NCBI GenBank assembly: GCA_000165345.1
Contig: CM000436.1
Span: 1,152,001-1,216,000 of the forward strand
Direction of reading: 5' to 3'
Length of the DNA stretch: 64,000 nucleotides
Shown: piece by piece, positions 1 through 64,000 of the stretch
How positions within the stretch are numbered: position 1 is the first letter of the stretch
Layout: every line of letters begins with the position of its first letter
Position numbers and translations under genes: made by a program
Notes under the pieces: generated by a model
Databases searched by the model: none
What the model saw: the letters and a program-made list of their open reading frames with translations, nothing else
Told to the model about the DNA's origin: nothing

Positions 1-53
1 CCATCACGGCAGATATCGCAATAACGTCTTAAACCTTTTCCTTGTCTAGCCAT
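1..53 (-). CDS. 5' end of a gene truncated by the window edge (N-terminus MARQGKGLRRYCDICRDG...); product not identifiable
   Basis: ATG at 53..51 on the minus strand opens an ORF that runs off position 1. Only 17 codons are visible. Confidence 0.3.
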   Translation of the reverse strand, partial: MARQGKGLRRYCDICRD

Positions 54-149
54 TATTGTTAATCCTGAGGTAGATATAAATATGAATAAAAGGCTTCTAG
101 TTTAGATTCTGGATGTATTTGTATAGAATAGAAACTTTAAGTAATCAAA

Positions 150-243
150 ATATATTCATACATATACATATACATATATATATATATATATACATAAATA
201 TATATATTTATATATATATATATATATTTATATATATAAATAT
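150..243. repeat. (TA)n / TATACA-type AT microsatellite
   Basis: Direct reading: tatattcatacatatacatatacatatatatatatatata...tatatataaatatgg. Confidence 0.9.
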
Positions 244-1342
244 GGCTACTCTTTCCAAAAAGTTGTATGCCTGTCCAATATTGTAATGTAAATCTTCAGG
301 TCCAAATTACGAGATTCTGCATAAATCTCAGTCCAGAATTAGAGTATAAGCTTTCCAAGATGTTGATTTCCTTTAATTTCTAATATTTTATCGGTACCTT
401 ATAGTTTTTTTATCTTGGATCCTCAGTAAATTTTCTCAAACTTGTATATGTAGAACCCCTCAATCAAATACTCATAATAGTATATCATCAAATTATTGAG
501 TTCGACTCCTCCTTTAGTCAGTAAATTAAAAAAAAAGCAACTGAGCTCTTTCTCTTATTTTCTTCTTTTTTATTTACTCTTTGAACATTTTCATATTTTG
601 TGCAAACTATCTACTCAAATAGCAGACATACAGACGTACATACGTATTGACTGTCCAATAATATGTGTAGTTACTTGCTATTCCATCACGCGGCTGTCTG
701 CACCTACCCTCCCTTTTTAATATCTATTATTGAGACATATATGTATCAATAATTTTATTAAAAAAAAACTGAACTTGCTTTTCAGTTTTTTAATTCAACC
801 TTAATTTTTTTATTTAATTAAGATAATCTTATTCAACAAAATTTGATTTTTCTAATGTTTTCAATGTCATGCAATTTACACCCATTTTGCCAATTTTCGC
901 CGGTATACATTTTTTTTTTATCAGACATGTGGGGATTGACACGTGTATTTTTTTTCTAATTGATTTTTTTTTCTTAAACAGTTGTATAATAATTTTATTA
1001 AGCTTCATAAATTCGCTTGAAGCCTGATCATCATTCATATAGAACAAGAGATTTTAACTAAGAGAAAATACTAGATATTGGTCAAACTAAATCACTAATC
1101 TAACACTTTGATAATAATTAAACGTTAATTTCCACATTGATACTTTATACCATTTTCCGAGCATATTGACAAAAAAAAAATACGTGAAAATTAATTAGTT
1201 AAATTTTTTTTTTTCTTGAAATTTAGAAACAAATTATATCTTATTTTAACTAAATATTTTACTTTAATATTAATTAGATAAATCACTTTGCTTATCAATT
1301 ATTTACTTCAATTCAATAGATTTCAATTTATACCGCCTATCA

Positions 1343-1356
1343 ATTTGGCGCCAAAT
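1343..1356. promoter_or_regulatory. perfect 14-bp palindrome ATTTGGCGCCAAAT (E2F-like site) about 590 bp upstream of the ELO gene; related GAAGGCGGGCT at 1389..1399 and TTTTCGCCGG at 894..903
   Basis: Seen directly. It matches the E2F/DP consensus TTTSSCGC on both strands. It is an isolated GC island in an AT-rich spacer. Confidence 0.5.
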
Positions 1357-1943: not shown

Positions 1944-2915
1944 ATGATCATAAAAAATAATAATAATGGGTATTTTATTGATAACGTTAATAAAATTTGG
2001 GAGATCCCTATAAATAGTGAGCATATGGACATTTTAAAGGAAATTCCATGGTTTAAATATCTTACTCTACCAATTGAAAGAAATTGGAATGGTATGAAAT
2101 TATTCCTTTGGACCAATGATAATTATTATCTTGCACACACAATCTGCATAATATATGCATTTTTCATATACTTTGGACCCAAAATTATGGAGAAACGAAA
2201 ACCTTTCAAATTGGAAAAACCTTTAAAATATTGGAACTTGTTTTTGGCACTTTTTTCATTTATTGGAACCCTACGTTTAATGCCATATGTTCTAACCAAC
2301 CTCATTAAGTATGGCTTTGTATCATCCATCTGTTCTCCTCCTATTGCTCCACTAACAAAAGGTCCAGCTGGCTTATGGCTCAGCTTATTTATATATTCTA
2401 AATATATTGAATTAATTGATACATTTTTTATTATTGCTAGAAAAAAATCACTTTCTTTTTTACACTGGTTCCATCACCTTACTGTACTCCTTTACACATG
2501 GGATGCTTATGTCTGCTGCCAAACTATTGGAGTCTTTTTTTGCGCCATAAACTACTTTGTTCATTCAATTATGTACTTTTACTATTATTTATCCTCTTGT
2601 GGTAAGAGACCAAAATGGGGTATGATCATCACAATCTTACAAATTGTACAAATGATTATTGGTACAATTCTAACCACTTCAGGTATGTATTACTCTTATA
2701 AACACCCATTTGCCAATGTATTTCCAGTTGAATATCTAAGTCAACCTCTCAAAGTTGGTTGTCACTTTATCAGAACCAACGGTGTTTTTGCCTGCCTTAT
2801 GTACATCTCCTACTTTGCTTTATTCTTTGACTTCTTTATCAAAAGATATATCACAAAAGGTACACCTCTTGCTGAATGGGTAACTGCCAATAAAAAACCA
2901 ACTAAGCGCGATTAG
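1944..2915 (+). CDS. ELO-family (GNS1/SUR4) long-chain fatty acid elongase
   Basis: 323-aa ORF with an ATG start. It has multiple TM helices and the ELO histidine box FLHWFHHLTVLLYTW (HxxHH). The C-terminus carries a basic di-lysine-like tail, NKKPTKRD. Confidence 0.85.
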   Translation: MIIKNNNNGYFIDNVNKIWEIPINSEHMDILKEIPWFKYLTLPIERNWNGMKLFLWTNDNYYLAHTICIIYAFFIYFGPKIMEKRKPFKLEKPLKYWNLFLALFSFIGTLRLMPYVLTNLIKYGFVSSICSPPIAPLTKGPAGLWLSLFIYSKYIELIDTFFIIARKKSLSFLHWFHHLTVLLYTWDAYVCCQTIGVFFCAINYFVHSIMYFYYYLSSCGKRPKWGMIITILQIVQMIIGTILTTSGMYYSYKHPFANVFPVEYLSQPLKVGCHFIRTNGVFACLMYISYFALFFDFFIKRYITKGTPLAEWVTANKKPTKRD

Positions 2916-5653: not shown

Positions 5654-6847
5654 CTAGTGGTTTAGTAAGAACTCGCTACAATGCTTTCCAGGTACAAATA
5701 ATGGTCCTAATGGGTCCTGGAAATCATATGGATCATACTTGGATGGGTATTTATCTACACTTCCTGTAAACTTTGGAGGAACAACAAGTCCAGGATTTGA
5801 GGGGGATGAAATTGTGGCAGTTTTAAGATAATAAAATGTATTTCCAGTGCTAATAATACCGGTATCACTAATAATAGACATTGAACCGTCATATTGTCCA
5901 ATCTCAGGATACTTTCCTTGTTTGATGAAAGGTTCTGAGAATGCAAAATGTCTAGAAAAGATATGCATAAGAAGCTTTTCATTATTAGTTTCAGGTGCTG
6001 GACTAGCAAAACTACCAATGCTTGTCATTTTACCTTCTGGATAAGTAACCATAAATCCATACCATAGTGTTTGGCCTTTCTTTGCAAGTACATTAGCTTT
6101 TTGAGGCTCACTTGGAATATAAGATGGAGTATTTGATTCTGTTGAAAGTTGTTCTTGTACTAGTTCCTGACAGATATAGTTACCTCCCCATCTAAAAGCA
6201 TTATCCTCCAAAACTTCAAATACAAGAGCTAACTCTTTTGGATTTGTTAAAAGACCTGTTTCATTTCTATAAGTACTCATTGTAAAATTTGTTTCTGTAA
6301 TTGAACCAGATTCTAAAAAACTAATCTTAGCCCATTTTTCTGTCTCGTTTGGCCAATAGAAAGAAGTTGGTAAAGTTTTAGATCCATTATTTTCATCTTG
6401 ATTCTCTTCCTTCAAGCTTCTAATATTATTCCTAGGTAATGTTTTTTGTCTAAGTTTATCCATAATTTTCTTTCTATTAATTCTTTTAAATTTGAAATCA
6501 TTTTCATCAACAGTAGTATTACTTTGAGTTGCAAATTCAACAATTTCTACTCCAAATCCATAAAAGAAATAATCAAAAAGATGATCAACATTTTCTTCAA
6601 ATAACGTCATTGATTCATTTGAAGCTGTTTTGTAGTTTGAAAACAACTTAGATTGATCTGGAGTACCATCTATTTGAGAATATTCATAAATAGTAGTATA
6701 AGATCTTAAGTTTGTTAGCCAAGCATCAGCTTGCCTACTAAATATCCATTCAACTTTTGCTTGATCAAATATTAATGCATGGACTATACCGATCAATAAT
6801 ATAACACCAAGTAAATATTGTAATTGTTTTGTTTGAATTGAATTCAT
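5654..6847 (-). CDS. hypothetical secreted N-glycosylated protein (lineage-specific)
   Basis: The ORF track start at 6856 is TTG, and the first ATG is at 6847. The N-terminus MNSIQTKQLQYLLGVILLIGIVHALIF is a signal peptide. There are many NxS/T sites and no recognisable domain. Confidence 0.55.
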   Translation of the reverse strand: MNSIQTKQLQYLLGVILLIGIVHALIFDQAKVEWIFSRQADAWLTNLRSYTTIYEYSQIDGTPDQSKLFSNYKTASNESMTLFEENVDHLFDYFFYGFGVEIVEFATQSNTTVDENDFKFKRINRKKIMDKLRQKTLPRNNIRSLKEENQDENNGSKTLPTSFYWPNETEKWAKISFLESGSITETNFTMSTYRNETGLLTNPKELALVFEVLEDNAFRWGGNYICQELVQEQLSTESNTPSYIPSEPQKANVLAKKGQTLWYGFMVTYPEGKMTSIGSFASPAPETNNEKLLMHIFSRHFAFSEPFIKQGKYPEIGQYDGSMSIISDTGIISTGNTFYYLKTATISSPSNPGLVVPPKFTGSVDKYPSKYDPYDFQDPLGPLFVPGKHCSEFLLNH

Positions 6848-10070: not shown

Positions 10071-13000
10071 TTATTTGGTTTGACTTTGTATTAAAACAAG
10101 GATTTTTATTTCGTTGAGTAAAGCAAAAAATGTTGAAATACTCAAGTAATTATTGATTGTAGAGGTAAATTGTTCAAATAGAAGCGAGTATATCTTCCAT
10201 TTTGCATTACAATTTGTAAGCCACTCAGAATTATTATTACTCTCACCAAATATACTAATAATACATGGATTAAAGTAAAATTGAGTGGAATTAAAATTTG
10301 AATTGCTTGAAATAGTCTGTTTCTTACTAAAGAGATTATAAAAAAATAAGTTATTTGGATCATTAATTACATCAATTTTCTTCCATTTACTAATATAGAA
10401 TTGTTGCTTTTCATTAATAATTTCCAATATATTATTATCCTTTTTATTACTAAAATTCAAATCTCCCTTATTTAAACCATTAGGATTAACCAATTCAACT
10501 TCCTCAAGAATAACAGATTCCAAAATTTCTTTTGATATAATTTCTTTTGGTAAGAATGAACCTAAATCAAGAAAAGAGTTAGGATTTTCAGAATTTACTG
10601 GAAGCTCCAACCATGTAGAATTCATTTCTCTCAAAAATTCTTCCGAATTCTCCAAAAGATTAATATCTTGTTCTTTAATATTCTTTTCTATTGATAGTCT
10701 TGGATAAAACTGTGATTGCCAAACCATCCACCAAGGAGGACTAGTAATAATAGAATCATCCAAATTCAAAGAATTTTGGTAAATATAATTAATAAATGCA
10801 ATATTAAATCCAAAATTACTTAAGTTATTCTTGAAAACTAAGTCATTTTGATCAAAATCCATATTTCCTTTAATTTCTGAAAACTTTTTAATCAACTTTG
10901 GTGCTTCAATTGAATAATCATTATTAGTATCATTTTTAATTGATTTAAAATTCTTAAAATAGTTTTCATTTATACCAAAATCAAAATCCTCGTCTTCATT
11001 AATTATTTCTTCATCTTCTTGTTCTATTTCATATTTTATTGGAGTAAAATATTCTTTCAAATATTTCAAATCTAAGATATTGTTATCACTAATCTCAGGT
11101 TTTATATCAAAATACTTTATTAAAGGATTAATCCTGCTTTTGAAGATACTATTAATTCTTGCTTGATCATAATATGTAAGACTTGTATTTATAACAAAGA
11201 CTTGTATTTCAGATGAATAAACCATTTTTCCAAATTTATTTTTGTAGCTATCAGTCTCATATGATTTATAATGAGAAATCAATGAGTAAATATGAAAAAT
11301 ATTGAATCTATAGAATCTGTCTTTGCTGTAAAACTTTTGTCGATTAACAAGTTTAACTAAAGTAAGATACTCAGAAAGAAGAGAATTAATGAATTGATTT
11401 TGCTTAGTTAAACCATTCCTTGTAGATTTATCATACCATGGAAGAAAAATCCCATTCTTATTAACCTTTTCATATTTTAATACAAATAATATATTTTGTA
11501 TAAATATTAAAACTTGTTCAATATCTAATACAAGCTTTTGTTTAGTAATTGGTTTTATTACATTAATCAATGGATATTCTTCTTTAAATAATGTTTTGTG
11601 AGATGAACTTAGTACTGTAAAGCCTTTGCTTAAATGATTAATCTTGAGTTTATATTTTGTACTTCCAAGAATTTGCCTTAAGCTGATTAAATTCTGTGAG
11701 AATTTAGATATCTTTTCATATCTAATATTAAAGAATTCTCCACTCTTTTGATTTCTATTTCTAGAAATAATAAAACTATTAGATTCCAAAATCTCATCAA
11801 TTACAATGATTTTACCAATTTGTTTAGGTTTAAGTACTTTATCTACCACTAAATCTGTGAATATATTACTAAAATACTTTTCAATCTGACCATTTAACAT
11901 AGGATCCAAAATATTTTCAACAAAATGTACTTTTTCTCTCAATTTTTCATTCAATATACTAATTTCCATATATTCCAATTCAAATCCTATACAATTGTGG
12001 AATACTAATCTATCACACCAATTATAACTTTTTATTAAATTTATCTCAGTTTTATCTCCACTATCTTCATCTTCTTTCTCATTTCTATTAAGAAATTTCC
12101 CAATTTTCCTTGTCCATTGTACCCTGTTTTGTAAGTCCCTGATAATACATTTTAATTCGCAAACAGGATAACCCCTTGCTAGCAAATTTTTTGAAACCTT
12201 TACTTTCTGATACTCTTCCTTACTATTATAATCTTCTTCCAATATTTCATAATCCTCATCATATTCATAACTATCTTTAATTTCATGGTTAGTACTTGAT
12301 TTTCTATTAAATTTATTGGGAGAAATATTATTATCAAGCTTGAAATTAATCTTTTGATTATATAAAATCTTTAATTCATTCAATAAAATCAACTCTTCAA
12401 AGTCAATAATTTCCATTGGAGACTCAATTTTAATAGTATAATTGTAATTACTCAACTTATTTTCTTTCATTTTCTTCTTTTTAACCAAATAATACCCATC
12501 GGAATATTTCATAAAATCTTCTGAGATGTATTTGTTTATTTCTTTCTGATCCAATTCTCTTATTAGTTTATGTTCTTGATCAATAATTCTATCCACTTTG
12601 AATTTGAATTCATATTCCTTTAAACCTTTATTCATTTTATTTAAATACTTATTTTTGACTATTTCTGTGAAACTAATTTTTAATCTATTAGTTCCAAGGC
12701 TGTCAAAATGTTCAAATCCTCCTTCAATCTCACTTATATAATGATAATAGTTATTATCCAGATTTGAACTTAGTATCATCTTATCAAAATAATCCTTCAA
12801 TTCAATACCCTCGTCTATTAAATCCTCCTCTTCCTCTTGTTTATCATTCTCTAACAATTTCATTAAATCAATGAGTCTTTCTGATCCACCTAAGCTATTC
12901 AAAACTTGGTTTTTGTGGATTTTTAATAAATTATTTGCTATATTAGTTTCAATAGAAGTATTACTTTCTTTTGTAAGTGTAAAATCATCGTCAATATAAA

Positions 13001-13145
13001 CTAGATCACTTTCCAAATATATTTTATCCAAGTGTTCTTGAATATAATTATCAGCCAAATCATTTCTTAAAAATGCATTCACCTTCAAATTTACTATTAA
13101 GTAGTAGCTCAAAAAAATTACGAAATAAAATATTCTCAAAAACAT
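10071..13145 (-). CDS. large hypothetical secretory-pathway protein (N-terminal signal peptide or signal anchor, about 1024 aa, no recognised domain)
   Basis: The ORF track start at 13211 is GTG, and the first ATG is at 13145. It gives MFLRIFYFVIFLSYYLIVNLKVNAF (hydrophobic signal or anchor). The protein has many NxS/T sites and acidic patches. Confidence 0.6.
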   Translation of the reverse strand: MFLRIFYFVIFLSYYLIVNLKVNAFLRNDLADNYIQEHLDKIYLESDLVYIDDDFTLTKESNTSIETNIANNLLKIHKNQVLNSLGGSERLIDLMKLLENDKQEEEEDLIDEGIELKDYFDKMILSSNLDNNYYHYISEIEGGFEHFDSLGTNRLKISFTEIVKNKYLNKMNKGLKEYEFKFKVDRIIDQEHKLIRELDQKEINKYISEDFMKYSDGYYLVKKKKMKENKLSNYNYTIKIESPMEIIDFEELILLNELKILYNQKINFKLDNNISPNKFNRKSSTNHEIKDSYEYDEDYEILEEDYNSKEEYQKVKVSKNLLARGYPVCELKCIIRDLQNRVQWTRKIGKFLNRNEKEDEDSGDKTEINLIKSYNWCDRLVFHNCIGFELEYMEISILNEKLREKVHFVENILDPMLNGQIEKYFSNIFTDLVVDKVLKPKQIGKIIVIDEILESNSFIISRNRNQKSGEFFNIRYEKISKFSQNLISLRQILGSTKYKLKINHLSKGFTVLSSSHKTLFKEEYPLINVIKPITKQKLVLDIEQVLIFIQNILFVLKYEKVNKNGIFLPWYDKSTRNGLTKQNQFINSLLSEYLTLVKLVNRQKFYSKDRFYRFNIFHIYSLISHYKSYETDSYKNKFGKMVYSSEIQVFVINTSLTYYDQARINSIFKSRINPLIKYFDIKPEISDNNILDLKYLKEYFTPIKYEIEQEDEEIINEDEDFDFGINENYFKNFKSIKNDTNNDYSIEAPKLIKKFSEIKGNMDFDQNDLVFKNNLSNFGFNIAFINYIYQNSLNLDDSIITSPPWWMVWQSQFYPRLSIEKNIKEQDINLLENSEEFLREMNSTWLELPVNSENPNSFLDLGSFLPKEIISKEILESVILEEVELVNPNGLNKGDLNFSNKKDNNILEIINEKQQFYISKWKKIDVINDPNNLFFYNLFSKKQTISSNSNFNSTQFYFNPCIISIFGESNNNSEWLTNCNAKWKIYSLLFEQFTSTINNYLSISTFFALLNEIKILVLIQSQTK

Positions 13146-51555: not shown

Positions 51556-51556
51556 T

Positions 51557-52313
51557 TTAATTATTATTGCAATCAAGATCTTCATCATCATCATCATCGT
51601 CATCAATATCTTGGCCTAAATCTATATCACTATCTTGATTCATTTTTTCAGTTTCTGAATCATTCATTCTATTAACATTATTTATATCTTGACTCCAATT
51701 TGGAGTAATTGACATTTCATATTCTGTTGGTAACCAAATTTTTGAAACGCCTTTATTTGGAAACGTAGGTAAAGGTAAAGAGTTAATTTCACTAGATACC
51801 ATTTTATTTGCTATATTTGAATTTTGACTGGCTGTAATTGTTTCATAGTATTCTGAAATAGCAATTTTAGCATCACATTCTTGAATATTTGTTCTTGAAT
51901 CTATTCTTGCATATTCATTAGATTTAATGATCAAATCTTGGCTAAATGCTAATTTTTTTTTCAGATGAACATAATAATTATGTAAATTATGATATTTTAT
52001 AGTGATTGAAAAATAAAACTTACCGAATGCAGTATTTAATAATTGATCAATAATTCTTGGATCATAAGATTCTACTTTCATATCTTTTAGTAGTCTTCCA
52101 ATAGAAGCTACAGATTCTGGAATTACTTGAATATATTTTTTCTATTGTAATTATTGATTAATATTTAAAATAATAAATAGAAATAATTAAATATTTATTA
52201 CAAAACAAGAATATATTAAAACAATATATTAATAGATATAAAGAAGAAATAATTATATATTGATTCAAACTTTGCATATATTAATATGAAAATACTTAAC
52301 TTACTTCTTCCAT
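51557..52313 (-). CDS. TAF9: TFIID subunit TAF9 (histone-fold TAF); exons 52313..52305, 52141..52024, 51948..51557
   Basis: Reconstructed by hand. ATGGAAGAA|GTAAGT gives a 163-nt intron. Exon 2 ends TTCG|GTAAGT, followed by a 75-nt intron. The product is MEEKKYIQVIPESVASIGRLLKDMKVESYDPRIIDQLLNTAFAFSQDLIIKSNEYARIDSRTNIQECDAKIAIS...DDDDDDDEDLDCNNN. It matches TAF9 [64 protein letters not shown] and its poly-Asp tail. Confidence 0.65.
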
Positions 52314-53100: not shown

Positions 53101-54528
53101 ATGTTTATTAAAAGGAATATATTGAGTTTAGCAACATTATTAGTTGGAGCTTCAGCAAGTGGTATATTTAGACAATTTGGTGATAAAATAACCCAACAAG
53201 CAAATCCATGTCATATTACATGTCCAAGAGAATATGCTCCAGTATGTGCAACAGATGCAGAAACTTATGAGAATTTATGTTTATTTGGAGTAGCAAAATG
53301 TATGAATAGAGATCTTCAATTGGTAGCAAATGTAACATGTCCAGATTTATTAATACATTTAACACATTTAGCACAGAAAGGTATGGTAGAAAGTATGAAT
53401 GCAATAGATTCAACATATCAAACATTTGGTAATATAACAAAGGGAACAGCAGAAATGATATCATCTACTTTAGATTCTGTACCATTAATAAAATTACCAA
53501 ACTTTAATCTTCCAATATTTGGAATACCACCAATTCCACCACAAGTTTTGAAAACGACTTCAACTTCAACTTCAACTTCAACTACTACTACTACTACTAC
53601 ATCAACATCAACTTCAACAACTGAAAATACAAGTACAAATTTTGAATCAGATTCTTCATCTGAATCAACATCAGAATACACATCCACATCCACATCCACG
53701 TCATCGACTATTACATCAGATATTGAGCCTACATCTACATCTACATCCACATCTGCATCTACATCTACATCTACATCTACATCTGCTTCTACATCTGCTT
53801 TGCCAACATCTACAACTACCATTGCTACTTCAACAAAATCTTCAAGAAAATTAATAGAGATTCCAAGTTTAGAACAAGGAGCAAGTGGAGTAATAGCACA
53901 GGTAACTAAGACTATACAATCAGCACTAAGTGGATCTGGAGTTAGTGGTTCATCACCAACAACATCATCATCAGCAGCATTGGGATTAAATAATTTGGAT
54001 GATGCAAGAACAACAATTGAGGGTATGGTAAAGACTATTCCATATACGCCAGGAAAGAATTCTAGTAATATATTATTAGTAGATGGAGTTTCACAAATAG
54101 TAAAATTACCAAATGGAAAAGAAAGTAAGAATTTACTTTCAAATATTACATCAACAGAATCATTTAATTTACCCAATATTACAAATTTAACAAATGGTTC
54201 ATTAAGTAATATTACAGAAAAAATTACAAGTAGAAATATTACATTAAATGGTGAAAATTTAATATCTAATCCAAATTTTCAATCTTTGAGAAATTTAACT
54301 TCATCAACATTGGATAATAATAATATTAGTAATACGACTGCTATTAATGGCACAAATAGTGGTTTAAATATTAATGGTACTTCTTTATTAACAGATTCTA
54401 AATTTAATAAATTGGTTAATGGTAGATTTAATACAACTGATATTTTTAAAGGAATTGGAAATACAATAAATAATATTACAAAGAATATTAAGGAGCAAGT
54501 AGAAAATGAAATTGAAAATATTAATTAA
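53101..54528 (+). CDS. secreted Kazal-domain protein with a long Thr/Ser-rich mucin-like region and an N-glycan-rich C-terminus
   Basis: 475-aa ORF with an ATG start. The signal peptide is MFIKRNILSLATLLVGASASG. The Kazal-type module is CPREYAPVCATDAETYENLCLFGVAKCMNRDLQLVANVTC. This is followed by TSTSTSTSTTTTTTTSTSTS...TSTSTSASTSTSTSTSAS repeats encoded by (ACTTCA)n and (ACATCT)n at 53556..53830, then about 20 NxS/T sequons. Confidence 0.7.
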   Translation: MFIKRNILSLATLLVGASASGIFRQFGDKITQQANPCHITCPREYAPVCATDAETYENLCLFGVAKCMNRDLQLVANVTCPDLLIHLTHLAQKGMVESMNAIDSTYQTFGNITKGTAEMISSTLDSVPLIKLPNFNLPIFGIPPIPPQVLKTTSTSTSTSTTTTTTTSTSTSTTENTSTNFESDSSSESTSEYTSTSTSTSSTITSDIEPTSTSTSTSASTSTSTSTSASTSALPTSTTTIATSTKSSRKLIEIPSLEQGASGVIAQVTKTIQSALSGSGVSGSSPTTSSSAALGLNNLDDARTTIEGMVKTIPYTPGKNSSNILLVDGVSQIVKLPNGKESKNLLSNITSTESFNLPNITNLTNGSLSNITEKITSRNITLNGENLISNPNFQSLRNLTSSTLDNNNISNTTAINGTNSGLNINGTSLLTDSKFNKLVNGRFNTTDIFKGIGNTINNITKNIKEQVENEIENIN

Positions 54529-56286: not shown

Positions 56287-56304
56287 AAATATTGTATTAA
56301 TTTT

Positions 56305-56519: not shown

Positions 56520-59500
56520 TCACTCCTTTTTAGGAATTTCTTGATTTAAATTCACATTCTTTAAACTATTATTATTGTTTGTTGGATCTTGAATTGGATT
56601 TCCAATTGTTGTCCCTCCTTTATTTATTCCATTAAAGCCAACTAATGGGTTTCCAATATGTTGTTGAAATTGTTGTTGCTGAAGTTGTTGCTGTTGTTGT
56701 TGTTGTATTATTAAACTCAACATATCTCCTCCAATGGAATTTCTATTTAATTGTTGTCGACTTTGAAAATTAAAAGGGATTGTATTTGCTAGAAACTGTT
56801 GTTGCAGTTGTNGCAATTGCAGTTGTTGTTGCTGCTGTTGCAGTTGTTGTAGTTGTTGAAGTTGTTGTTGTTGTTGTTGTTGTTGCTGTTGTTGTTGTTG
56901 TTGCTGCTGCTGCTGCTGCTGCTGTTGCTTTAACTGTAGCTGCAATTGAAGTTGAAGTTGTAGCTGTTGATTGTGTTGTTGCTGCAGTTGCTGTTGTTGT
57001 TGATGTTGTTGCTGTTGTTGCTGTTGCAATAACTGTTGTTGGAACAAATGTTGAAGTTGGAAAAAGTTAGGAAATGCTTGGGGTTGTGTTTGCAAAGAGG
57101 TTTGTGAAAAAAGTCCATTTCCAACCCCGAATTCATTTCCAACTCCAGCTTCAATTCCAGCTCCAGTTCCAATTCCAGCTCCAGTTACAACTCCAACTCC
57201 ACCACTTCCAGCTCCAGCATCAATTCCAGTTCCAGCTCCTACACCAACTCCAGATCCAACTCCAGCTCCTACGCCAACTCCTACACCAACTCCAGATCCT
57301 GCTCCAGCTCCAGATCCAGCTCCAGCTCCAGCTCCAGCTCCAGCTCCAGCTCCAGCTCCAGCTCCAGCTCCAGCTCCAGCTCCAGCTCCAGCTCCTACTG
57401 AATTCAAAGTTGCAGAATCAAATATTCCTGGAACTATAACACCTTTATTTGAGCTATTTTCTGTTTTTGAATTAAATCCTCCTTCTCCGCCTTCTGAGGC
57501 TCCCATTGTTATTTTACTTGAAATTTCAACAACCTCACATGACTTCTCTCCGTCTACTATCGCTTCCTTAGCTAAAACCATACTCTTACTATTATCGTAA
57601 TCCCCTACTTTAGTAGAATCTCCAACTAATACCTCATTCTTGTCCTCATTCTTCTCCTTCTCTGTCTCTTTCTGCTCTTCTTTTCCATATTGATCATTTA
57701 CTGATATTCCTTCTACTAATCCAGAAACCATCTCTGCTTTCAAATCCGTAATCAGAGTTTCAGATTCAGGTTTGAGCTTAGTTTCAGGTCCAGGTTCAGA
57801 CTCAAGATTGGGTTCAGTTTCAGGATTAAGATCCCGCTCTTTTAACTCTGTAGAATCTTTAGTTGTTGAATTATTTACAGAAGTTGGATTAGGACTTGTA
57901 GTGATACCTGCAGTATAATTACTACCGCCAACAATTCCACCACTTCCCAATAATGTGTTCATTATCATCTGATTTAAAGGATTTGCCAATCCTCCAACAA
58001 ATCCAATCTGTTGAGAATTTCTCATTTGTTCTTGTAATGTTTGCTGAAAAACCAACTGTTGTTGTAAGTATTGATTCATTAATATACTATTCCAAGTCTG
58101 ATTGTGATTGCTCTGGGAATTAATATTTGTTGAATCACTTGTACTATTATTAACACTGCTTGTTGTATTAACACCATTATTCACAGGATTTATAGATATG
58201 GGATTCTCTGTTGCTCCTACTGCTCCTGATACCGATCCTGATTCTCCTATTCCTGTTCCTCCCACTCCTCCTGCTACATTATGCTGTCCAAGATTAGACC
58301 CCAAGCCTCCAAATAATAATCCAGAAGGATACCCCACTCCTGTTGCTCCTGTTGCTCCTGTTGCTCCTGTTGCTGCTCCTACTCCTACCCCTGCTCCTCC
58401 TACTCCTGTTACTCCCATTCCTATCCCTCCTCCTCCTCCTAATCCCAACCCTCCTATACCAGGAATTCCCCCCTTAGCCATTCCAGGTATACCAGATATG
58501 CCTCCTATACGAGGTATTCCTCCTAAATTTTGTAGTCCTCCCATACTTTGTAGTCCACCCAAACCCTGAAATCCTCCTATACCTTGTAGTCCTCCAAGCC
58601 CTGACAAATCTTGAATGCCATTACCGCTCCCACTACAACTATTACTACTGCTACTGTTATTAATATCATTACCACCACTTCCTCCTACATCACCAACAGC
58701 ATTTTCCACTCCCATTCCAGAATAAATACCTGTATTTGATACTTGGCAAGGCTTTAATGGATTCACTTGAGATGTAACATTTCCACATGAATTAATAATT
58801 GATGGAAAACCACCTGATAAAATTGGTATAGAATTATCATTAACTTTAGGTAATTGTAATCCAAAATTTACGTTACCCATATTCATATTTAATAATGAAT
58901 TTGGCTGTAATTGACTTAGTCCAGGAATTGAATTATCTGAAATAAAGTAGTTTGCTAGAATTCCATTATTATTTAATAATAGTAAGTTATTAATATTATT
59001 GGATGATGATGATGTTTCTATTTTACCATTTAATACTTTATTATTACTATTTCCTTTCATATACTCATCCATCAATTTTGGTATCTTTCTATTCATACTC
59101 TCTTCATTATATTCATTTAAACCAATATTATTACCATTTCCACTACTCATTAGTATATCATTACTGTTCGTATCACTAACTTCCTTGCTATTTAACAATC
59201 CTACTACTCCTGTTACACCTGATCCTGGCCCTGATCCTGGCCCTGATCCTGATCCTGACCCTGATCCTGACCCTCTCTTACGTCTTCCTTGCCTTGGCTT
59301 CTCATTCATTGATGATTTTTGTAATACCGAATTACTATTTATATTATTAACTATTTCCAAATTTCTTAATTTACCTTTACCTGTCTCTGTTGATGGAACA
59401 TTTGAGACATAATTTGAAATATCTGAAGATAATGAATAATCTTGCTTATTTGATGGAGATATTGTCAAAGAATGTAATAAAGAATTACTACCATTTATAA

Positions 59501-62500
59501 CTCCTCCTAATTCTCCCATTATATTATCCATAAACTGATTCAAATATAAATATACCGATACCTTTAAATCATTTATTGATATATTTGGATCCAAATATGA
59601 CATATTCAAAGATTCTTGATCTTTATATTCTTTATGATCAAATATTATTGGTATATTACTTGGTAATTGTATATTTGAATTTCCTTGCTTATTTTGAATA
59701 TTTATATTATAAAAAGGAGAAATTAATGCATCCATATCTTTTGGTAATATATATCCATTACTTAAGTTATCCATTGTATATCTTTTATTTGTATTTAAAT
59801 GAGAATCATCATGTTTTCTAAATAAAAACTTATATATTAAATCATCATATAATCCCCATTCTTCTTTCTTTTCTATTCCTATCATATTATTATTCATTTC
59901 TCTTCTTTCAATTATTGGAAGCCTAAATAATGTTGATGGTCTATTTAACATTCTTCTTAAAGATGATCTTGAAAGAAGTCTCTCTGTATACATATTCATA
60001 TTACCAAGACTACTAAAACATGATCTCTTATAAAAATCTCTCATAAAATGATTATATGTTGATTCAATTGTTAAAGTATTCAATATTTCATCAATTAAAA
60101 GCTCCCTATATGAATGTTTCTTATATTTAATAATCTCCATACATCTTATAGTACTAATAAGACTATTCCAAAATATACTCTTATCTTTTTTTATTTGTAT
60201 ATTATCATCATCTTGAGAATCTTTAATAATTCTTTGAATATTTTCTTCTGTATCATCTTTTGTATGAATTGAAGATGATATTATTTCATCATCATTCATT
60301 ATATTATGATCTTTTTGATCATAATGATGATTCATATTAATTTGATTCTTATTATGATTTCCTTTAAAATAATATACTAATCTTAAAATCCTTTTAAATC
60401 CTAATGTATATTTATATTTGTAATAAAAATCTATACAATCTTTAATAGTCTTATATTCCATAAATGATGCTATCCTTCTGAAATCTTTTGGATACATTAA
60501 ATACTTTTCTATAAACATTCTTATTTCTGAATAAGTCCATATAGTATTTCTATTCCTTTCTTGATCAGTTGGATTGATTACTTGATTATTCTTATTAATA
60601 TAAATAAATTTCACAGGTTTAATAGGATCTTGATCATAAACATTAAATTCAATTTCTGCAGGAAATCTAAAAATACTATTCTCAAACCATAGTGGAGATG
60701 GACCTATAAAACTGGATGATGAACTAGTCATTTGCATCCATTCTCTTTGAGCTTGTTTTTGATGTACTATTCCTTTTTCTCTTTCTCTATTTTTTTGTAT
60801 ATTCAATCCAATATCTTTTTCTTTATCTTTTTCTTTATTAGAAATAGGTATTTCTTTATAATTTTTAGTTACCCCGATACCTAATGTTGTAGTACCAGAA
60901 GAACCAAATGATAAAGAATTACAACTATTAGAATGAGAAGGATTAGATTGTGATGTAGAAGTGATATTATTTCCTGTTAAAATATTTCCAATTGATGGTT
61001 GAGAATCATTTTTCATAACTGATGCAAATTCATTAGAATAATTTGTAGATCCAGGTACCCCTCCAGTTTTAACCAAATTAAGAAATGATAAAGATGCATT
61101 GCCTGTATTTGATGACATAGAATGATCTTCATTTCCAATAATATTATTGGAAGAATGATAATTATCATTAGAATTTCTTGTCCTTCTTGATCTTGTAGAA
61201 TTTAATTCAAAGGTACCGACATCAATTCCTCCAGTTCCTCTTTTTCTTCTTGTATTACTAACAGTATTAAGTGTTTCATTTGTTGAATTAGAGATATTAT
61301 TTATATCATGAGTATTCCGATTAATACTTTCAGAATGATTTTGTTCAATATTTCCAATATGATCACTTCCTTTTAATATACCTCCTTTTGTTTGAATATT
61401 ATATAACTTTTGATTATTATTAGTATTAGTAGAATCAATATTATCACCAAATACAAGAGCTCTATTAGAATTAGTAAAAAGTATTGGTGTTTGAATATTT
61501 TGTAAAGACATCATATAAGTTTTTGATATATCATTATTTCTACATTCAGGTAGAAGATCTAGAAATTTATGATATACTTTAAACCTAAAATCATGTTTAA
61601 AATAACCAATAGGTAAAGGTACCAATTGATCAGGATGATCAATTGCTCTTAAAGGTAAACAACCCCAAGTAAAATTCAGATCTCTTTCACTATTTAACAT
61701 TTCATTATATGCAACATATCTTTTATAACGATGATATATAAAATGTAAAGATCTTTTAATATTTGATATTTCATTTCTAATCATGATCTTTTTTCTTTTA
61801 ATATGTTTTCTTACTCTTTGAATTTTTGAAGAATAACCAAGTAAATTAATAGGATGATAAAAATCACCATTAATTGGTCTTAAAATATCTTTAATAACTT
61901 TTAAAGCAAACTTATTATGATCTTGTATTGGATAACAAAGACTAGTATAGTATGGCATTAAAGATACATATTCTGGTATACCAAGTATAACTTCAATATA
62001 ATCTTGTATTTCTCTATCAATAACTAAATCATCCTGATAGATTTTAATAATTTCAAGAGTATGATCATCTTTACTTTCTTCTAAAATAGATTCTAATAAC
62101 TTAATTTCATCCATTAAATAGTTAAATGTTGATATAAGAAATGGAATATGATCACCAGTATTTTTTTGATGATTATCGATAGTAATGATCTCATTAATTT
62201 TATCCTTTAAAACTTTTAAAGAATTTAATTTCTCAATATTTTCTTCTTTGAGTTTTTGTAAAGATTCTGTAATTCCAAAATCATTATTAATATGAGAAGA
62301 AGAATTAGAATCTTGAGAATTTTTATTTTCATTAATAAATCGTATTCGGTACCTTTTTAGATCTTTATTATTTGTATCAATTTCACTATTAATAAATTGA
62401 TCCAACTCTTTAATTCTACCAGGCAAAACACAAATCTTAACTTTTTGTCTTGCAGTTCTAAAAGCCTGACTTGTATTTTCCATAACTGAAGCCAAGTAAT

Positions 62501-63749
62501 TATAATTATGATCATTTTCTTCTAAATTATTATTAATTTCAGAGTTTCCCGCCTTTTCTGTAAAGAATGAGCAAGAATCTGAAATATTGTTAGAATTAGA
62601 AGAATCAATATAAAGATTTTCGAATGCCGTATTGGTATGTTCATCTTCAACTTTTTTTAGTGTGAGATTAGATAGATTGAAATCTGGAGTTAGAAATTCA
62701 ATAGCTCCTAGTAGTCCTTGTTTGTAATTAATAGACTTTTTGTGATTATAATCAGTAAGTCCAGCACAAGATGATGATTCATAAGAGGTACCTAAAGTAA
62801 TTTGAGAAGTTTCTTGAGATCTTTTAACAAGATTAACTTGATAAATATGATATATTTTACATAAATCATTCAAGAATTGACCATTTTCTCCATAAGTTGA
62901 GCTATTAACTGAATTAATCTTTTTAATGTTTCTAATATTTCCCAAGCTTAAATTTAAGTATGGACCTCTTCTATGATCTTGTGCTATTGGTAGTTGTTGT
63001 AAATTGTAATTCTCCAGTTCTCTACCTCCTTTATCATATAAATCTTTCAAGTAATATTTACAAGCTAAAGTAAAAATATCCAAAGGAGTTCTTGATCTTA
63101 ATATCTTTTCTGTTTCATCTATCTCAGTCTTTTCCTTGGAGCTAGTGTTCTTCCTTCTAAAGTATCTTCTATGAGTTTTCTTCTTTTTTGTGTTTATAGC
63201 TTTCAAATCTTTTGTAGAAGAGGAGCATGAATTATTAATATTACTATTGTTATTAGTTGCATTTAAACCAGAACTTGAGCCTAAATTAGCTCCTGAATCA
63301 AAATCTAGAGCCTCACATATCTCTTCTCCTTCTCCATCATCTAAATCATCATCCATAATAGAAGTTGTTAAACAATTTTCATTAAAGTTAATACTATTTG
63401 CCTCGATATTTCTTCTTTCTTGTTCCTTTTTTAATTGTTCCAACTCTAAATTAATTCTCAGTATCTCATCCTGAAGGTATAATACTAAATTATGATCCTT
63501 TAAAATATTTACATTACCAAAAATCATCTTATCTTGAATCTTCTCTTCATCTATTATTGGCTCATATAGAAATTCATCCTTGAATAAATTATCTTTCAAT
63601 CCTCCACCTTCACTAAAATCAGAAACTTGCTTCAAATATTTATCCACTAATTTCTCAAATTCATCAGCTTCCTTAACATTTTTAACTTTTCTACATCCAT
63701 TAATTATGCTTCCCAGCAAAATCTCGTTATATTCAGTTTCTTTATCCAT
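56520..63749 (-). CDS. NCoR/SMRT-like SANT-domain transcriptional co-repressor (2409 aa) with extreme low-complexity expansion
   Basis: ATG at 63749. The SANT domain with its preceding block ([30 protein letters not shown]...[43 protein letters not shown]) is collinear with NCoR1 (LSVIPPMMFDAEQRRVKFINMNGL...WTDHEKEIFKDKFIQHPKNFGLIASYLERKSVPDCVLYYY). It has an N-terminal coiled coil ([18 protein letters not shown]). The upstream block [49 protein letters not shown] matches the NCoR region KVYHENIKTNQVMRKKLILFFKRRNHARKQREQKICQRYDQL. The C-terminal third is poly-Q, (GA)n, GGLQ/GGIPG Gly-rich and PD/PG repeats. One N at 56812 gives an X. Confidence 0.7.
   Translation of the reverse strand: [2409 protein letters not shown]
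57131..57397. repeat. imperfect to perfect (GCTCCA)n hexamer array (perfect core about 57313..57396, at least 13 copies) encoding the (GA)n/(GS)/(GV) dipeptide run of the NCoR-like protein; adjacent (CAA/CAG)n poly-Q tract at 56795..57050
   Basis: Seen directly. Mirror ORFs 56780..57070+, 57074..57439+ and 58108..58569+ are artefacts of these repeats. Confidence 0.85.
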
Positions 63750-63810
63750 AATTCTACCAAATTTTTCTTCAAAACTTATTTATTTAATCAGTTTCAACTT
63801 GATTATTTGC

Positions 63811-63960
63811 CTTTATATATACATATATATATATATAAACATATAAACATATATATATATAAGCAAATATATATATTTATGATTTACTATATTCTCCATA
63901 AATATATTTATATTTATATAAATATATACACTATCTATTCAAATAAACTCTTTCTAACTT
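63811..63960. repeat. TA/ATATAC-rich microsatellite in the 5' flank of the NCoR-like gene
   Basis: Seen directly. Track ORFs 63580..63846 and 63807..63998 are low-complexity artefacts. Confidence 0.85.
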
Positions 63961-64000
63961 ATTTAACCTTTGTTCGCTTTCCAAGCTTCTTTCTCTAATA

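What the first reader, a model, noticed from the sequence alone, without database searches (positions are those of the whole stretch)
1..64000. Eukaryotic, most likely Cryptosporidium-like apicomplexan, nuclear DNA rather than a prokaryotic accessory region
The window has about 25-30% GC, with genes every 2 kb or so on both strands and standard-code ORFs up to 7.2 kb. Most genes are intronless, but a subset of small housekeeping genes carry 60-165-nt GTAAGT...AG introns. Intergenic spacers are about 75% AT, not about 90% as in Dictyostelium or Plasmodium, and nearly every one carries GGCGCC/GGCGGG E2F-like elements and GCATGC palindromes. This combination of over-represented upstream motifs has been reported for Cryptosporidium. 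The gene content also fits: a Kazal-domain Ser/Thr mucin, an Sfp-type PPTase, an ELO elongase and an NCoR-like co-repressor (as in the coccidian HDAC3 complex). No transposons, CRISPR, rRNA or operon-like systems are present, so any 'defence island' reading would be wrong.
Basis: partly seen in the sequence, partly recalled or inferred. Interest (0 to 1): 0.5.

Follow-up and report, generated by a model that had tools for sequence, protein, structure and literature searches.

The report
Cryptosporidium parvum chromosome 8 segment

Summary
The window is nuclear DNA of Cryptosporidium parvum, chromosome 8, at roughly 1.144-1.208 Mb of a ~1.34 Mb chromosome. Fourteen of 15 ORF products tested are residue-for-residue identical to deposited C. 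parvum proteins, 13 of them listed with an Iowa II accession. A 21.4-kb stretch is 99.97% identical to a C. parvum chr 8 assembly. Gene order is kept in C. ubiquitum, C. felis, C. bovis and C. ryanae.

- GC is 27%.
- There are 26 protein genes plus one tRNA in 64 kb.
- The longest ORF is 7,230 nt, and all three standard stop codons are used.
- Spacers are 77.5% AT.
- Four genes carry seven introns of 60-163 nt.
- The ELO, Sfp-PPTase, Kazal-mucin and NCoR/SMRT-like SANT genes are present.
- E2F-like GGCGCC/GGCGGG and GCATGC are 17- to 140-fold over-represented in spacers, and almost confined to them.
- Several E2F-like sites are the only islands conserved between species.

One claim is overstated. 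E2F-like cores occur in 18 of 27 spacers and GCATGC in only 9, so "nearly every one" does not hold.

The genome and its motifs are published. Interest is low and the novelty class is already known.

The parts
1..53 (-). 5' end (first ~18 codons) of a 2140-aa SNF2/PHD chromatin-remodeller gene that continues beyond the window
   Evidence: Gene call at L005 1688-8110 (-), mapped to the window through the ELO anchor
1944..2915 (+). ELO/GNS1-SUR4 fatty-acyl elongase, 323 aa, intronless
   Evidence: Pfam ELO, E=1.4e-72. Exact match to C. parvum Iowa II EAK89598.1
3262..4503 (-). WD40 protein, THOC3-like, 413 aa
   Evidence: Pfam Beta-prop_THOC3, E=2.4e-23, below that model's cutoff. Exact match to EAK89599.1
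4739..5125 (-). DNA polymerase delta subunit 4-like, 128 aa
   Evidence: Gene call. Pfam DNA_pol_delta_4, 31.2 bits against a cutoff of 25
5654..6847 (-). Hypothetical 397-aa protein found only in Cryptosporidium clusters
   Evidence: No Pfam hit. Exact match to EAK89601.1
7847..8431 (+). Hypothetical 194-aa protein, named 'apicomplexan specific' by its source
   Evidence: Exact match to EAK89602.1
8532..9530 (-). Brix-domain ribosome-biogenesis protein, 332 aa
   Evidence: Pfam Brix, E=1.3e-25. Gene calls
10071..13145 (-). Hypothetical 1024-aa protein
   Evidence: Gene calls. No Pfam hit
13974..14829 (-). Small atypical RIO/Bud32-type kinase, 236 aa, with two GTAAGT...AG introns at 14713-14772 (60 nt) and 14342-14426 (85 nt)
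   Evidence: Only one GT..AG combination gives the annotated 236-aa product. Pfam RIO1/Pkinase. The Bud32 assignment is my inference and was not tested
15063..16880 (-). Hypothetical 605-aa Cys/His-rich, acidic-repeat protein
   Evidence: ORF and gene calls. No Pfam hit
17694..19058 (+). Cytoplasmic seryl-tRNA synthetase, 454 aa
   Evidence: Pfam Seryl_tRNA_N plus tRNA-synt_2b. Exact match to EAK89605.1
19220..20908 (-). DHHC palmitoyltransferase, 562 aa
   Evidence: Pfam DHHC, E=8e-28. Exact match to EAK89606.1
21738..22813 (+). Sfp-type 4'-phosphopantetheinyl transferase, 300 aa, with introns at 21896-21979 (84 nt, GTTAGT) and 22524-22612 (89 nt, GTAAGG)
   Evidence: The spliced product equals P0110, 'SFP-type phosphopantetheinyl transferase [C. 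parvum]'. Pfam AASDHPPT_N plus ACPS
23262..23549 (+). 95-aa ORF, annotated either as its own gene or as the last exon of the PPTase
   Evidence: ORF. The cluster mixes 95-aa, 300-aa and fused 389-aa models
23987..24068 (+). tRNA-Ser (anticodon CGA)
   Evidence: Rfam tRNA, 59.1 bits. ARAGORN
24323..25879 (-). Dbp5-like DEAD-box RNA helicase, 518 aa
   Evidence: Pfam DEAD plus Helicase_C. Exact match to EAK89607.1, 'Dbp5p-like'
26406..27452 (+). Protein arginine N-methyltransferase (PRMT1 type), 348 aa
   Evidence: Pfam PRMT_C, E=2.7e-54. Exact match to EAK89608.1
28168..34065 (+). CPSF-A/DDB1/RSE1-family beta-propeller protein, 1965 aa
   Evidence: Pfam CPSF_A. Exact match to EAK89609.1
34486..39810 (+). 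RIC1-like protein, 1774 aa
   Evidence: Pfam Beta-prop_RIC1_2nd and RIC1, both below their cutoffs. Gene call
40460..40726 (+). 88-aa hypothetical small protein with hydrophobic stretches
   Evidence: ORF. Gene calls of 88, 82 and 72 aa at the same place in five species
41223..41768 (-). V-ATPase proteolipid subunit (c''), 181 aa
   Evidence: Pfam ATP-synt_C, two copies. Exact match to EAK89611.1
43273..43640 (.). Conserved non-coding block inside the 2.5-kb spacer. The core at 43305-43371 holds G-box-like CCCCTCC, TATA-like, TTTTAACTGCTCGTGAC and GGCGCC. A G-box-like CCCCACC and a TGGCGC lie just upstream at ~43280-43300
   Evidence: Alignments of three and five species. No Rfam family. No structure signal
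44276..46618 (+). RING-variant (SSM4/MARCH-like) plus FHA domain protein, 780 aa
   Evidence: Pfam RINGv plus FHA. Exact match only to EAK89613.1 / XP_627364.1
48120..50408 (+). FCP1-like RNA pol II CTD phosphatase (NIF plus BRCT), 762 aa
   Evidence: Pfam NIF and PTCB-BRCT. Exact match to EAK89614.1
50952..51555 (+). 113-aa hypothetical protein with two GTAAGT introns at 51146-51286 (141 nt) and 51346-51466 (121 nt)
   Evidence: Only one solution gives the annotated 113-aa product
51557..52313 (-). TAF9 (TFIID 31 kDa) homologue, 197 aa, with one GTAAGT intron at 52142-52304 (163 nt)
   Evidence: Pfam TFIID-31kDa, 38.6 bits against a cutoff of 29 for the spliced product
53101..54528 (+). Secreted Kazal-domain protein with a Ser/Thr-rich mucin-like tract, 475 aa
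   Evidence: Pfam Kazal_1, E=1e-8 at residues 36-70. The source name includes a signal peptide, a Kazal domain and mucin-like low complexity
56520..63749 (-). 2409-aa low-complexity protein with one SANT domain of the NCoR/SMRT deacetylase-activation type (residues ~1036-1115)
   Evidence: Pfam Myb_DNA-binding at residues 1071-1113. Best PDB match is the SMRT DAD bound to HDAC3, 4A69_C, E=3e-10, covering 79 of 94 residues
17041..17464 (.). Three GGCGCC E2F-like sites (17041, 17276, 17459) in the divergent hyp605/SerRS spacer, each conserved in position in C. ubiquitum and C. felis
26172..26191 (.). Paired E2F-like sites GGCGCCAGACCTTTGGCGGG in the divergent DBP5/PRMT1 spacer. This is the main island conserved across the three species

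Best explanation
The window is a 64-kb stretch of chromosome 8 of Cryptosporidium parvum, at about 1.144-1.208 Mb of a ~1.34-Mb chromosome. It most likely comes from the original Iowa II reference assembly.

It is ordinary, compact apicomplexan nuclear DNA:
- It holds 26 mostly intronless protein genes and one tRNA gene.
- Spacers are short and 77.5% AT.
- Four genes carry short spliceosomal introns.

The G+C-rich hexamers in the spacers are the known Cryptosporidium promoter elements:
- E2F/DP-type sites of the form (T/A)(T/A)(T/A)GGCG(G/C)(G/C)AAA.
- The ApiAP2 palindrome TGCATGCA.
- G-boxes.

The inferred mechanism is that E2F/DP heterodimers bind the GGCGCC/GGCGGG sites in nucleosome-free spacers. 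From there they drive transcription, often in both directions from one spacer. What is shown here is the enrichment of these sites, their confinement to spacers, their E2F-like flanks and their conservation between species. Protein binding itself is taken from the literature and was not tested here.
For: Identity of the window:
- 14 of 15 ORF products are exact matches to C. parvum proteins, 13 of them with Iowa II accessions.
- blastn gives 99.97% identity over 21,366 nt to CP029787.1, 99.91% to CM109968.1 and 99.96% to a Logan contig.
- Positions in the record are 1,135,853-1,208,437 of 1,342,803.
- The RINGv-FHA product matches only the Iowa II entry EAK89613.1 / XP_627364.1, seen on one 1,344,712-bp contig. 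Other C. parvum assemblies carry a different sequence.
- The window holds 10 N characters.

Synteny:
- Brix through CPSF_A is kept in C. ubiquitum and C. felis.
- CPSF_A through TAF9 is kept in the same two species.
- RINGv-FHA, V-ATPase c'' and RIC1 are kept in C. bovis and C. ryanae.

Eukaryotic features:
- Seven GT..AG introns reproduce the annotated product lengths, and for the PPTase the exact deposited protein.
- Eukaryote-specific families are present: TAF9, FCP1, CPSF_A, PRMT, DHHC, V-ATPase c'' and ELO.

Motifs:
- Enrichment over shuffles is 17- to 140-fold in spacers.
- 25 of 27 GGCGCC/GGCGGG sites are intergenic.
- The flanks are T/A-rich on the 5' side and A-rich on the 3' side, as in the E2F consensus TTTGGCGGGAAA.
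- The same spacer bias is seen in C. ubiquitum (12 intergenic against 4 genic) and C. felis (14 against 2).
- Sites are phylogenetic footprints in otherwise diverged spacers.

Literature:
- E2F, GCATGC and G-box motifs are over-represented upstream of C. parvum genes, and the cgd2_3490 AP2 domain binds [T/C]GCATGC[A/G] (PMC3734150).
- E2F is the dominant motif in sporozoite ATAC-seq peaks, and more than half of those peaks are bidirectional promoters (10.1101/2025.01.17.633476).
Against: Nothing argues against the identification itself. The remaining points are minor.

- One product, the 605-aa protein, is not in the collection as an exact sequence.
- The SANT protein is 2409 aa here against 2405 and 2408 aa in other assemblies. 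That fits repeat-length variation or old-assembly errors.
- The exact source record of the window was not retrieved, so the attribution to the original Iowa II assembly is an inference.

On the mechanism:
- Five promoter-bearing spacers lack any E2F-like core.
- Three of the seven convergent (3'-3') spacers have an E2F-like core, so the motif is not simply one per promoter.
- No binding data were generated here.
Confidence: 0.98

Rival explanations
1. The window comes from a sister species such as C. hominis, C. meleagridis or C. tyzzeri, not from C. parvum.
For: These species share the same gene order, and their orthologues fall in the same 90%-identity clusters.
Against: - The exact-sequence matches are to C. 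parvum entries. In nearly all clusters checked, the C. hominis, C. meleagridis and C. tyzzeri proteins are separate, non-identical members. The exception is the V-ATPase proteolipid, which is also identical in C. meleagridis.
- The Dbp5-like protein's cluster has a single member, carried only by C. parvum accessions.
- DNA identity to two C. parvum chr 8 assemblies is 99.91-99.97% over 21 kb, spacers included.
- I did not align a C. hominis locus directly.
Confidence: 0.015
2. The window belongs to a non-apicomplexan AT-rich protist that uses the standard code, such as an amoebozoan or a ciliate.
For: Only the general features fit: low GC, short introns and compact genes.
Against: - Every cluster looked up contains only Cryptosporidium entries.
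- Nucleotide identity to C. parvum is near-perfect.
- Synteny holds across five other Cryptosporidium species.
Confidence: 0.001
3. The window is a prokaryotic or viral accessory region, a defence island, in a low-GC genome.
For: - ORFs lie on both strands in AT-rich DNA.
- The DEAD-box protein gives weak hits to PADLOC helicase-type models, SngC at 1.1e-15 and Cas3 at 3.3e-13.
Against: - Spliceosomal introns are needed to recover four annotated products.
- The gene set is eukaryote-specific.
- Sigma-70-like and intrinsic-terminator-like sites are at shuffle level.
- There are no CRISPR-like or dispersed repeats.
- The other nine proteins scanned have no PADLOC hit.
- The DEAD-box protein scores 120 bits to Pfam DEAD and is named Dbp5-like by its source.
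Confidence: 0.001

Closest known systems
Cryptosporidium parvum Iowa II reference genome, chromosome 8 (Abrahamsen et al. 2004, from my own knowledge), proteins EAK89598-EAK89616, and later assemblies CP029787.1 and CM109968.1
   Same: - Proteins are identical.
- DNA is 99.9-99.97% identical over the 21 kb compared.
- Gene order and intron positions are the same.
   Different: - A handful of SNPs and indels separate the window from the newer assemblies: 5 mismatches and 1 gap against CP029787.1 in 21 kb.
- The window holds ten N characters.
- Repeat lengths differ in the SANT protein (2409 against 2405 and 2408 aa) and in the Kazal mucin (475 against 477 aa in the ATCC assembly).
Published C. 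parvum upstream motifs: E2F-like ([C/G]GCGC[G/C], GGCGGG), AP2_1 (TGCATGCA) and G-box (G.GGGG), from Oberstaller et al. 2013 (PMC3734150)
   Same: - The same cores are over-represented in the same place, upstream and intergenic DNA.
- The flanks match the E2F consensus.
   Different: Nothing differs in kind. Added here for this one locus: the E2F-like sites are positionally conserved footprints across C. parvum, C. ubiquitum and C. felis.
NCoR/SMRT co-repressors (human NCOR1/NCOR2), deacetylase-activation domain bound to HDAC3 (PDB 4A69)
   Same: Residues ~1036-1115 of the 2409-aa protein align to 79 of the 94 residues of the SMRT DAD construct, including the segment N-terminal to the SANT fold, at E=3e-10. 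NCoR1 and NCoR2 SANT structures take the top three places.
   Different: - Only one SANT/Myb domain was detected by Pfam, whereas NCoR/SMRT have a SANT1-SANT2 pair.
- The rest of the protein is low-complexity (poly-Q, Gly/Ala repeats) with no detectable similarity.
- Association with an HDAC3 was not tested. The link to the Toxoplasma HDAC3 co-repressor complex is from memory only.
Sfp-type PPTase of C. parvum (UniRef Q5I4D4)
   Same: The spliced product is identical to the deposited 300-aa protein.
   Different: Annotations disagree on the 3' end, with 300-, 304- and 389-aa models.

Membership tests
Cryptosporidium parvum nuclear genome, chromosome 8 | Near-identity of the DNA, spacers included, to C. 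parvum chr 8 assemblies | tested here: met
   99.97% over 21,366 nt to CP029787.1 and 99.91% to CM109968.1. Only window 7687-29058 was aligned at the DNA level.
Cryptosporidium parvum nuclear genome, chromosome 8 | Encoded proteins identical to deposited C. parvum proteins | tested here: met
   14 of 15 exact look-ups were found, all with C. parvum accessions.
Cryptosporidium parvum nuclear genome, chromosome 8 | Synteny with other Cryptosporidium species (SerRS-DHHC-PPTase-DBP5-PRMT1 and onward) | tested here: met
   The gene order is the same in C. ubiquitum, C. felis, C. bovis and C. ryanae loci.
E2F/DP-type cis-regulatory element | CG-rich core ([C/G]GCGC[G/C] or GGCGGG) with a T-rich 5' flank and an A-rich 3' flank | tested here: met
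   32 sites were found. Position -1 is T/A in 26 of 32, and positions +1 to +3 are A in 16-20 of 32.
E2F/DP-type cis-regulatory element | Over-represented in, and confined to, upstream or intergenic DNA | tested here: met
   29 sites in spacers against 0.60 +/- 0.78 in 500 dinucleotide shuffles. 25 of 27 GGCGCC/GGCGGG sites are intergenic.
   18 of 27 spacers, or 15 of 20 promoter-bearing ones.
E2F/DP-type cis-regulatory element | Conserved in orthologous spacers of other species | tested here: met
   The three sites upstream of SerRS and the paired site between DBP5 and PRMT1 are conserved in C. ubiquitum and C. felis.
E2F/DP-type cis-regulatory element | Bound by E2F/DP proteins in vivo | not testable with these tools
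   Only indirect literature support is available: E2F motifs dominate ATAC-seq peaks (10.1101/2025.01.17.633476).
ApiAP2 GCATGC (AP2_1) element | Palindromic GCATGC core enriched in spacers | tested here: met
   11 in spacers against 0.66 +/- 0.80 in shuffles, and 13 against 3.2 in the whole window.
   9 of 27 spacers.
NCoR/SMRT-type co-repressor | SANT1 / deacetylase-activation domain | tested here: met
   Best PDB match is 4A69_C (SMRT DAD) at E=3e-10, followed by 1XC5 and 2EQR.
NCoR/SMRT-type co-repressor | Second (histone-interaction) SANT domain | tested here: not met
   Pfam finds a single Myb_DNA-binding hit in the 2409 aa at E<=0.01. A divergent copy cannot be excluded.
NCoR/SMRT-type co-repressor | Physical association with, and activation of, an HDAC3-class deacetylase | not testable with these tools
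   This needs co-purification.
Kazal-domain mucin | Kazal domain, a Ser/Thr-rich tract and an N-terminal signal sequence | tested here: met
   Kazal_1, E=1e-8 at residues 36-70. A long TSTSTS tract is present. The signal peptide rests only on the source's name and on reading the hydrophobic N-terminus.
Sfp-type 4'-phosphopantetheinyl transferase | Two-lobed AASDHPPT_N plus ACPS architecture | tested here: met
   Both Pfam domains score above their cutoffs on the spliced product, which is identical to the deposited C. parvum SFP-PPTase.
Prokaryotic defence island / CRISPR locus | Defence-system proteins, CRISPR arrays and bacterial promoters or terminators | tested here: not met
   - PADLOC hits come only from the DEAD-box protein, among the 10 proteins scanned, and are to several helicase-type models.
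- There are no spaced direct repeats.
- Promoter and terminator scans are at chance level.

The most novel reading that the evidence does not exclude
The ~370-nt non-coding block at 43273-43640 may mark an unannotated conserved non-coding transcript, or a dedicated composite regulatory module, and not merely the promoter and 5' UTR of the RINGv-FHA gene 640-1000 nt downstream.

- It lies in an unusually long spacer whose size is conserved (1.7-2.5 kb in five species).
- Its core is kept as far out as C. bovis and C. ryanae.
- My evidence neither shows nor excludes a transcript there.
Probability: 0.2. Interest if true: 0.2.

Novelty: already known. Interest (0 to 1): 0.05.

Why it matters
The main value is to the scan itself. 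It shows that a eukaryotic parasite chromosome was present in the input, and that this window should be removed from any search for prokaryotic accessory systems.

Biologically, the window is a clean local illustration of published features of Cryptosporidium:
- An extremely compact genome.
- Few and short introns.
- Heavy use of E2F/DP-type promoter elements, which according to the papers cited are absent from the other apicomplexans studied.

The cross-species footprints found here give concrete sites for anyone testing E2F function by mutagenesis. The best examples are the three sites upstream of SerRS and the paired site between DBP5 and PRMT1. These sites do not change what is known.

Tried and rejected
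Structured ncRNA in the conserved block at 43273-43640:
- An Rfam E-value scan gave only chance-level hits, with E>=3.3 and scores far below gathering thresholds.
- RNAalifold on three species gave a covariation term of +0.46, which does not support a structure.
- Single-sequence folding z-scores were -0.01 and +0.31 on the two strands.
- The longest ORF that overlaps the block is 45 aa, and the longest lying wholly inside it is 31 aa.
- I conclude a structured RNA or a small protein is unlikely there.

Is the block a known lncRNA?
- I searched the supplements of the C. parvum lncRNA paper (PMC7840661) for gene IDs and for six sequence strings from the block and found nothing.
- The FASTA file was truncated when stored, so this result is not informative.

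Polycistrons in the window:
- No supplement of the polycistron preprint is held, and no matching gene IDs occur in its text.

Toxoplasma HDAC3 complex:
- A literature search for a Toxoplasma HDAC3/NCoR-like complex returned only papers on the host NCoR.

Recurring motif:
- TTAACTGCTCGTGAC occurs only once in the window even with 3 mismatches allowed.

Prokaryotic reading:
- Rejected on the basis.

Full report
**What the window is**

The composition profile gives 23-33% GC in every 4-kb bin, and the base counts give 27% overall with ten N characters. Six-frame ORF listing shows long ORFs on both strands, up to 7,230 nt at 56520-63749 on the minus strand.

Exact-sequence look-ups of 15 ORF products found 14 in the protein collection, all carrying Cryptosporidium parvum accessions:
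- Thirteen of them include an Iowa II EAK896xx accession, for example SerRS EAK89605.1, PRMT EAK89608.1, ELO EAK89598.1 and the Kazal protein EAK89616.1.
- The orthologues from C. hominis, C. meleagridis, C. tyzzeri, C. ubiquitum, C. felis and C. canis are, with one exception, separate and non-identical members of the same clusters. The exception is the V-ATPase proteolipid, which is also identical in C. meleagridis.

The contigs that encode these proteins are C. parvum chromosome-8 records of 1.34 Mb. Window 7693-29058 aligns to CP029787.1 at 99.97% identity over 21,366 nt (5 mismatches, 1 gap) and to CM109968.1 at 99.91%. Anchoring four genes places the window at about 1.144-1.208 Mb of that chromosome.

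The RINGv-FHA product matches only the Iowa II entry, which lies on a 1,344,712-bp contig, and not the newer assemblies. Together with the N characters, this suggests the original Iowa II reference assembly is the source. That attribution is an inference.

**Gene map**

I combined the gene calls of the annotated assemblies with Pfam and source names. The window holds the following genes, in order:

| Gene | Note |
|---|---|
| SNF2/PHD | 5' tip only |
| ELO elongase | |
| THOC3-like WD40 protein | |
| Pol-delta subunit-4-like protein | |
| Two hypothetical proteins | |
| Brix protein | |
| 1024-aa hypothetical | |
| Small RIO/Bud32-type kinase | |
| 605-aa hypothetical | |
| SerRS | |
| DHHC palmitoyltransferase | |
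| Sfp-type PPTase | |
| 95-aa ORF | |
| tRNA-Ser(CGA) | |
| Dbp5-like DEAD-box helicase | |
| PRMT1 | |
| CPSF-A/DDB1-family protein | |
| RIC1-like protein | |
| 88-aa small protein | |
| V-ATPase proteolipid c'' | |
| RINGv-FHA protein | |
| FCP1-like CTD phosphatase | |
| 113-aa protein | |
| TAF9 | |
| Kazal-domain mucin | |
| 2409-aa SANT protein | |

That makes 26 protein genes and one tRNA, 70% of bases genic, and one gene per 2.4 kb. The 25 complete CDS end in TAA (13), TAG (7) and TGA (5), which is the standard code.

**Introns**

Four annotated products are shorter than their genomic spans. I enumerated GT..AG combinations that restore an open frame of exactly the annotated length:
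- The kinase has a single solution, with introns of 60 and 85 nt.
- The 113-aa gene has a single solution, with introns of 141 and 121 nt.
- TAF9 has a single solution, with one intron of 163 nt.
- All five of these introns begin GTAAGT.
- The PPTase had several solutions. The one with introns at 21896-21979 (GTTAGT) and 22524-22612 (GTAAGG) reproduces the deposited 300-aa C. parvum SFP-PPTase residue for residue.

**Motifs**

In the whole window:

| Motif | Observed | Expected (dinucleotide shuffles) |
|---|---|---|
| GGCGCC | 11 | 0.18 |
| GGCGGG | 16 | 0.66 |
| GCATGC | 13 | 3.2 |

Split by my gene map, 25 of the 27 E2F-like hexamers and 11 of 13 GCATGC lie in the 19 kb of spacer, although the spacers have only 22.5% GC.

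Shuffling the spacers alone 500 times:

| Motif | Observed in spacers | Shuffle mean |
|---|---|---|
| GGCGCC | 10 | 0.07 |
| GGCGGG/CCCGCC | 15 | 0.25 |
| GCATGC | 11 | 0.66 |
| Any GGCGSS core | 29 | 0.60 |

Oriented on the core, the flanks are T/A-rich on the 5' side and A-rich on the 3' side. This resembles the TTTGGCGGGAAA E2F consensus cited in PMC3734150.

The same spacer bias holds in the orthologous loci:
- C. ubiquitum has 12 intergenic sites against 4 genic.
- C. felis has 14 intergenic sites against 2 genic, even though C. felis spacers are 38% GC.

Spacer alignments show the sites as footprints:
- The three GGCGCC sites upstream of SerRS are kept in position in all three species.
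- The paired GGCGCCAGACCTTTGGCGGG is the main conserved island of the DBP5/PRMT1 divergent spacer.

E2F-like cores occur in 18 of 27 spacers (15 of 20 that must contain a promoter), and GCATGC in only 9 of 27.

**What is known**

- Oberstaller et al. 2013 (PMC3734150) report E2F (TGGCGCCA, GGCGGG), TGCAT/GCATGC and G-box motifs as the most over-represented upstream motifs in C. parvum. They confirm that the cgd2_3490 AP2 domain binds [T/C]GCATGC[A/G]. They also note the absence of E2F/DP proteins in other apicomplexans.
- A 2025 preprint (10.1101/2025.01.17.633476) finds E2F to be the dominant motif in sporozoite ATAC-seq peaks. More than half of those peaks are bidirectional promoters. It also reports 201 polycistronic transcripts.
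- Li et al. 2021 (PMC7840661) find E2F and AP2_1 motifs upstream of antisense lncRNAs.

The motif content of this window is therefore an instance of published biology. The mechanism I adopt is that E2F/DP heterodimers bind these sites in open spacers, often serving two divergent genes. That mechanism is inferred from the literature and was not tested here.

**The named genes**

- The Kazal claim is met: Kazal_1 at E=1e-8, followed by a long Ser/Thr tract. The source's own name also says so.
- The NCoR-like claim is supported for one domain. Residues ~1036-1115 of the 2409-aa protein align best to the SMRT deacetylase-activation domain crystallised with HDAC3 (4A69_C, E=3e-10), with two NCoR SANT structures next.
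- Pfam sees only one SANT/Myb domain, so the two-SANT architecture of NCoR/SMRT is not shown.
- The link to a coccidian HDAC3 complex could not be checked.

**Not prokaryotic**

- Sigma-70-like sites (84 against 85 +/- 8.5) and terminator-like sites (3 against 3.8 +/- 2.0) are at chance level.
- Repeats are only coding low-complexity tracts and AT runs.
- Rfam finds only the tRNA.
- Of the 10 proteins scanned, only the DEAD-box protein gives PADLOC hits, to several helicase-type models.

**Side observations**

*Conserved non-coding block.* The 2.5-kb spacer between V-ATPase c'' and RINGv-FHA is also long (1.7-2.4 kb) in four other species.
- It contains a ~370-nt block at 43273-43640 that is far better conserved than its surroundings.
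- The core at 43305-43371 is kept as far out as C. bovis and C. ryanae.
- The core reads as a dense cluster of G-box-like, E2F-like and TATA-like elements around an invariant TTTTAACTGCTCGTGAC.
- Rfam, RNAalifold and folding z-scores give no sign of a structured RNA, and the longest ORF overlapping the block is 45 aa.
- I read it as a composite promoter with a long 5' UTR, or possibly an unannotated lncRNA.

*PPTase 3' end.* Three competing annotation models exist, at 300, 304 and 389 aa, and all use or skip the same GTAAGC donor at 22781.

*E2F-like sites in 3'-3' spacers.* E2F-like cores also sit in three of the seven convergent (3'-3') spacers. One of them, next to a TGCATGCA between SerRS and DHHC, is conserved in C. 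ubiquitum. This fits published antisense-lncRNA promoters.

**Verdict**

The region is a piece of a long-published reference genome. Interest is low and the novelty class is already known.

Noticed in passing
window 43273-43640 (core 43305-43371), inside spacer 41769-44275: A ~370-nt non-coding block is much better conserved than the rest of the spacer in C. parvum, C. ubiquitum and C. felis. Its 67-nt core (CCCCTCC - TATA-like - TTTTAACTGCTCGTGAC - GGCGCC - AACACACAAA) is kept as far out as C. bovis and C. ryanae. The spacer itself is long in all five species (1.7-2.5 kb). No Rfam family, no folding or covariation signal, and no sizeable ORF was found (longest overlapping ORF 45 aa). It is probably a composite promoter with a long 5' UTR for RINGv-FHA, or an unannotated lncRNA.
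   Followed up: partly
window 22781-23549: The 3' end of the Sfp-PPTase gene has three rival public annotations. One reads through to the stop at 22813 (300 aa). One has an 87-nt intron from the GTAAGC donor at 22781 (304 aa). One has a 470-nt intron from the same donor that fuses the 95-aa ORF at 23262-23549 (389 aa in C. hominis, and a 365-aa fused call in C. ubiquitum). An E2F-like CCCGCC at 23133 lies inside the putative long intron. Transcript data are needed.
   Followed up: partly
The proximity is probably coincidental.
   Followed up: yes
window 19082-19112, also 2943-2948 and 56308-56329: E2F-like cores, two of them next to GCATGC, sit in convergent (3'-3') spacers that should need no mRNA promoter. 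The SerRS/DHHC pair (GGCGGG...TGCATGCA) is conserved in C. ubiquitum but not in C. felis. This fits the published finding that C. parvum antisense lncRNAs have E2F or AP2_1 motifs upstream (PMC7840661). No transcript evidence was available here.
   Followed up: partly
window 51555-51557: The 113-aa gene (+) and TAF9 (-) end tail to tail with a single base between their stop codons, so their 3' UTRs must overlap on opposite strands. The same arrangement is called in C. ubiquitum and C. felis.
   Followed up: no
window 46774, 55829-55836, 55952, 56438, 56812: Ten N characters are present. One falls inside the poly-Q region of the SANT-protein ORF and translates as X. The repeat-bearing genes differ in length between assemblies: SANT protein 2409 against 2405 and 2408 aa, Kazal mucin 475 against 477 aa. 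These are signs of an older assembly and of repeat polymorphism.
   Followed up: partly
window 54529-56519: A 2-kb, 81% AT convergent spacer lies between the Kazal mucin and the SANT protein. No gene is called in it, it contains several of the Ns, and it has an ATT/AAT inverted low-complexity pair (55882-55971 and 56202-56291). I did not compare it with other species.
   Followed up: no
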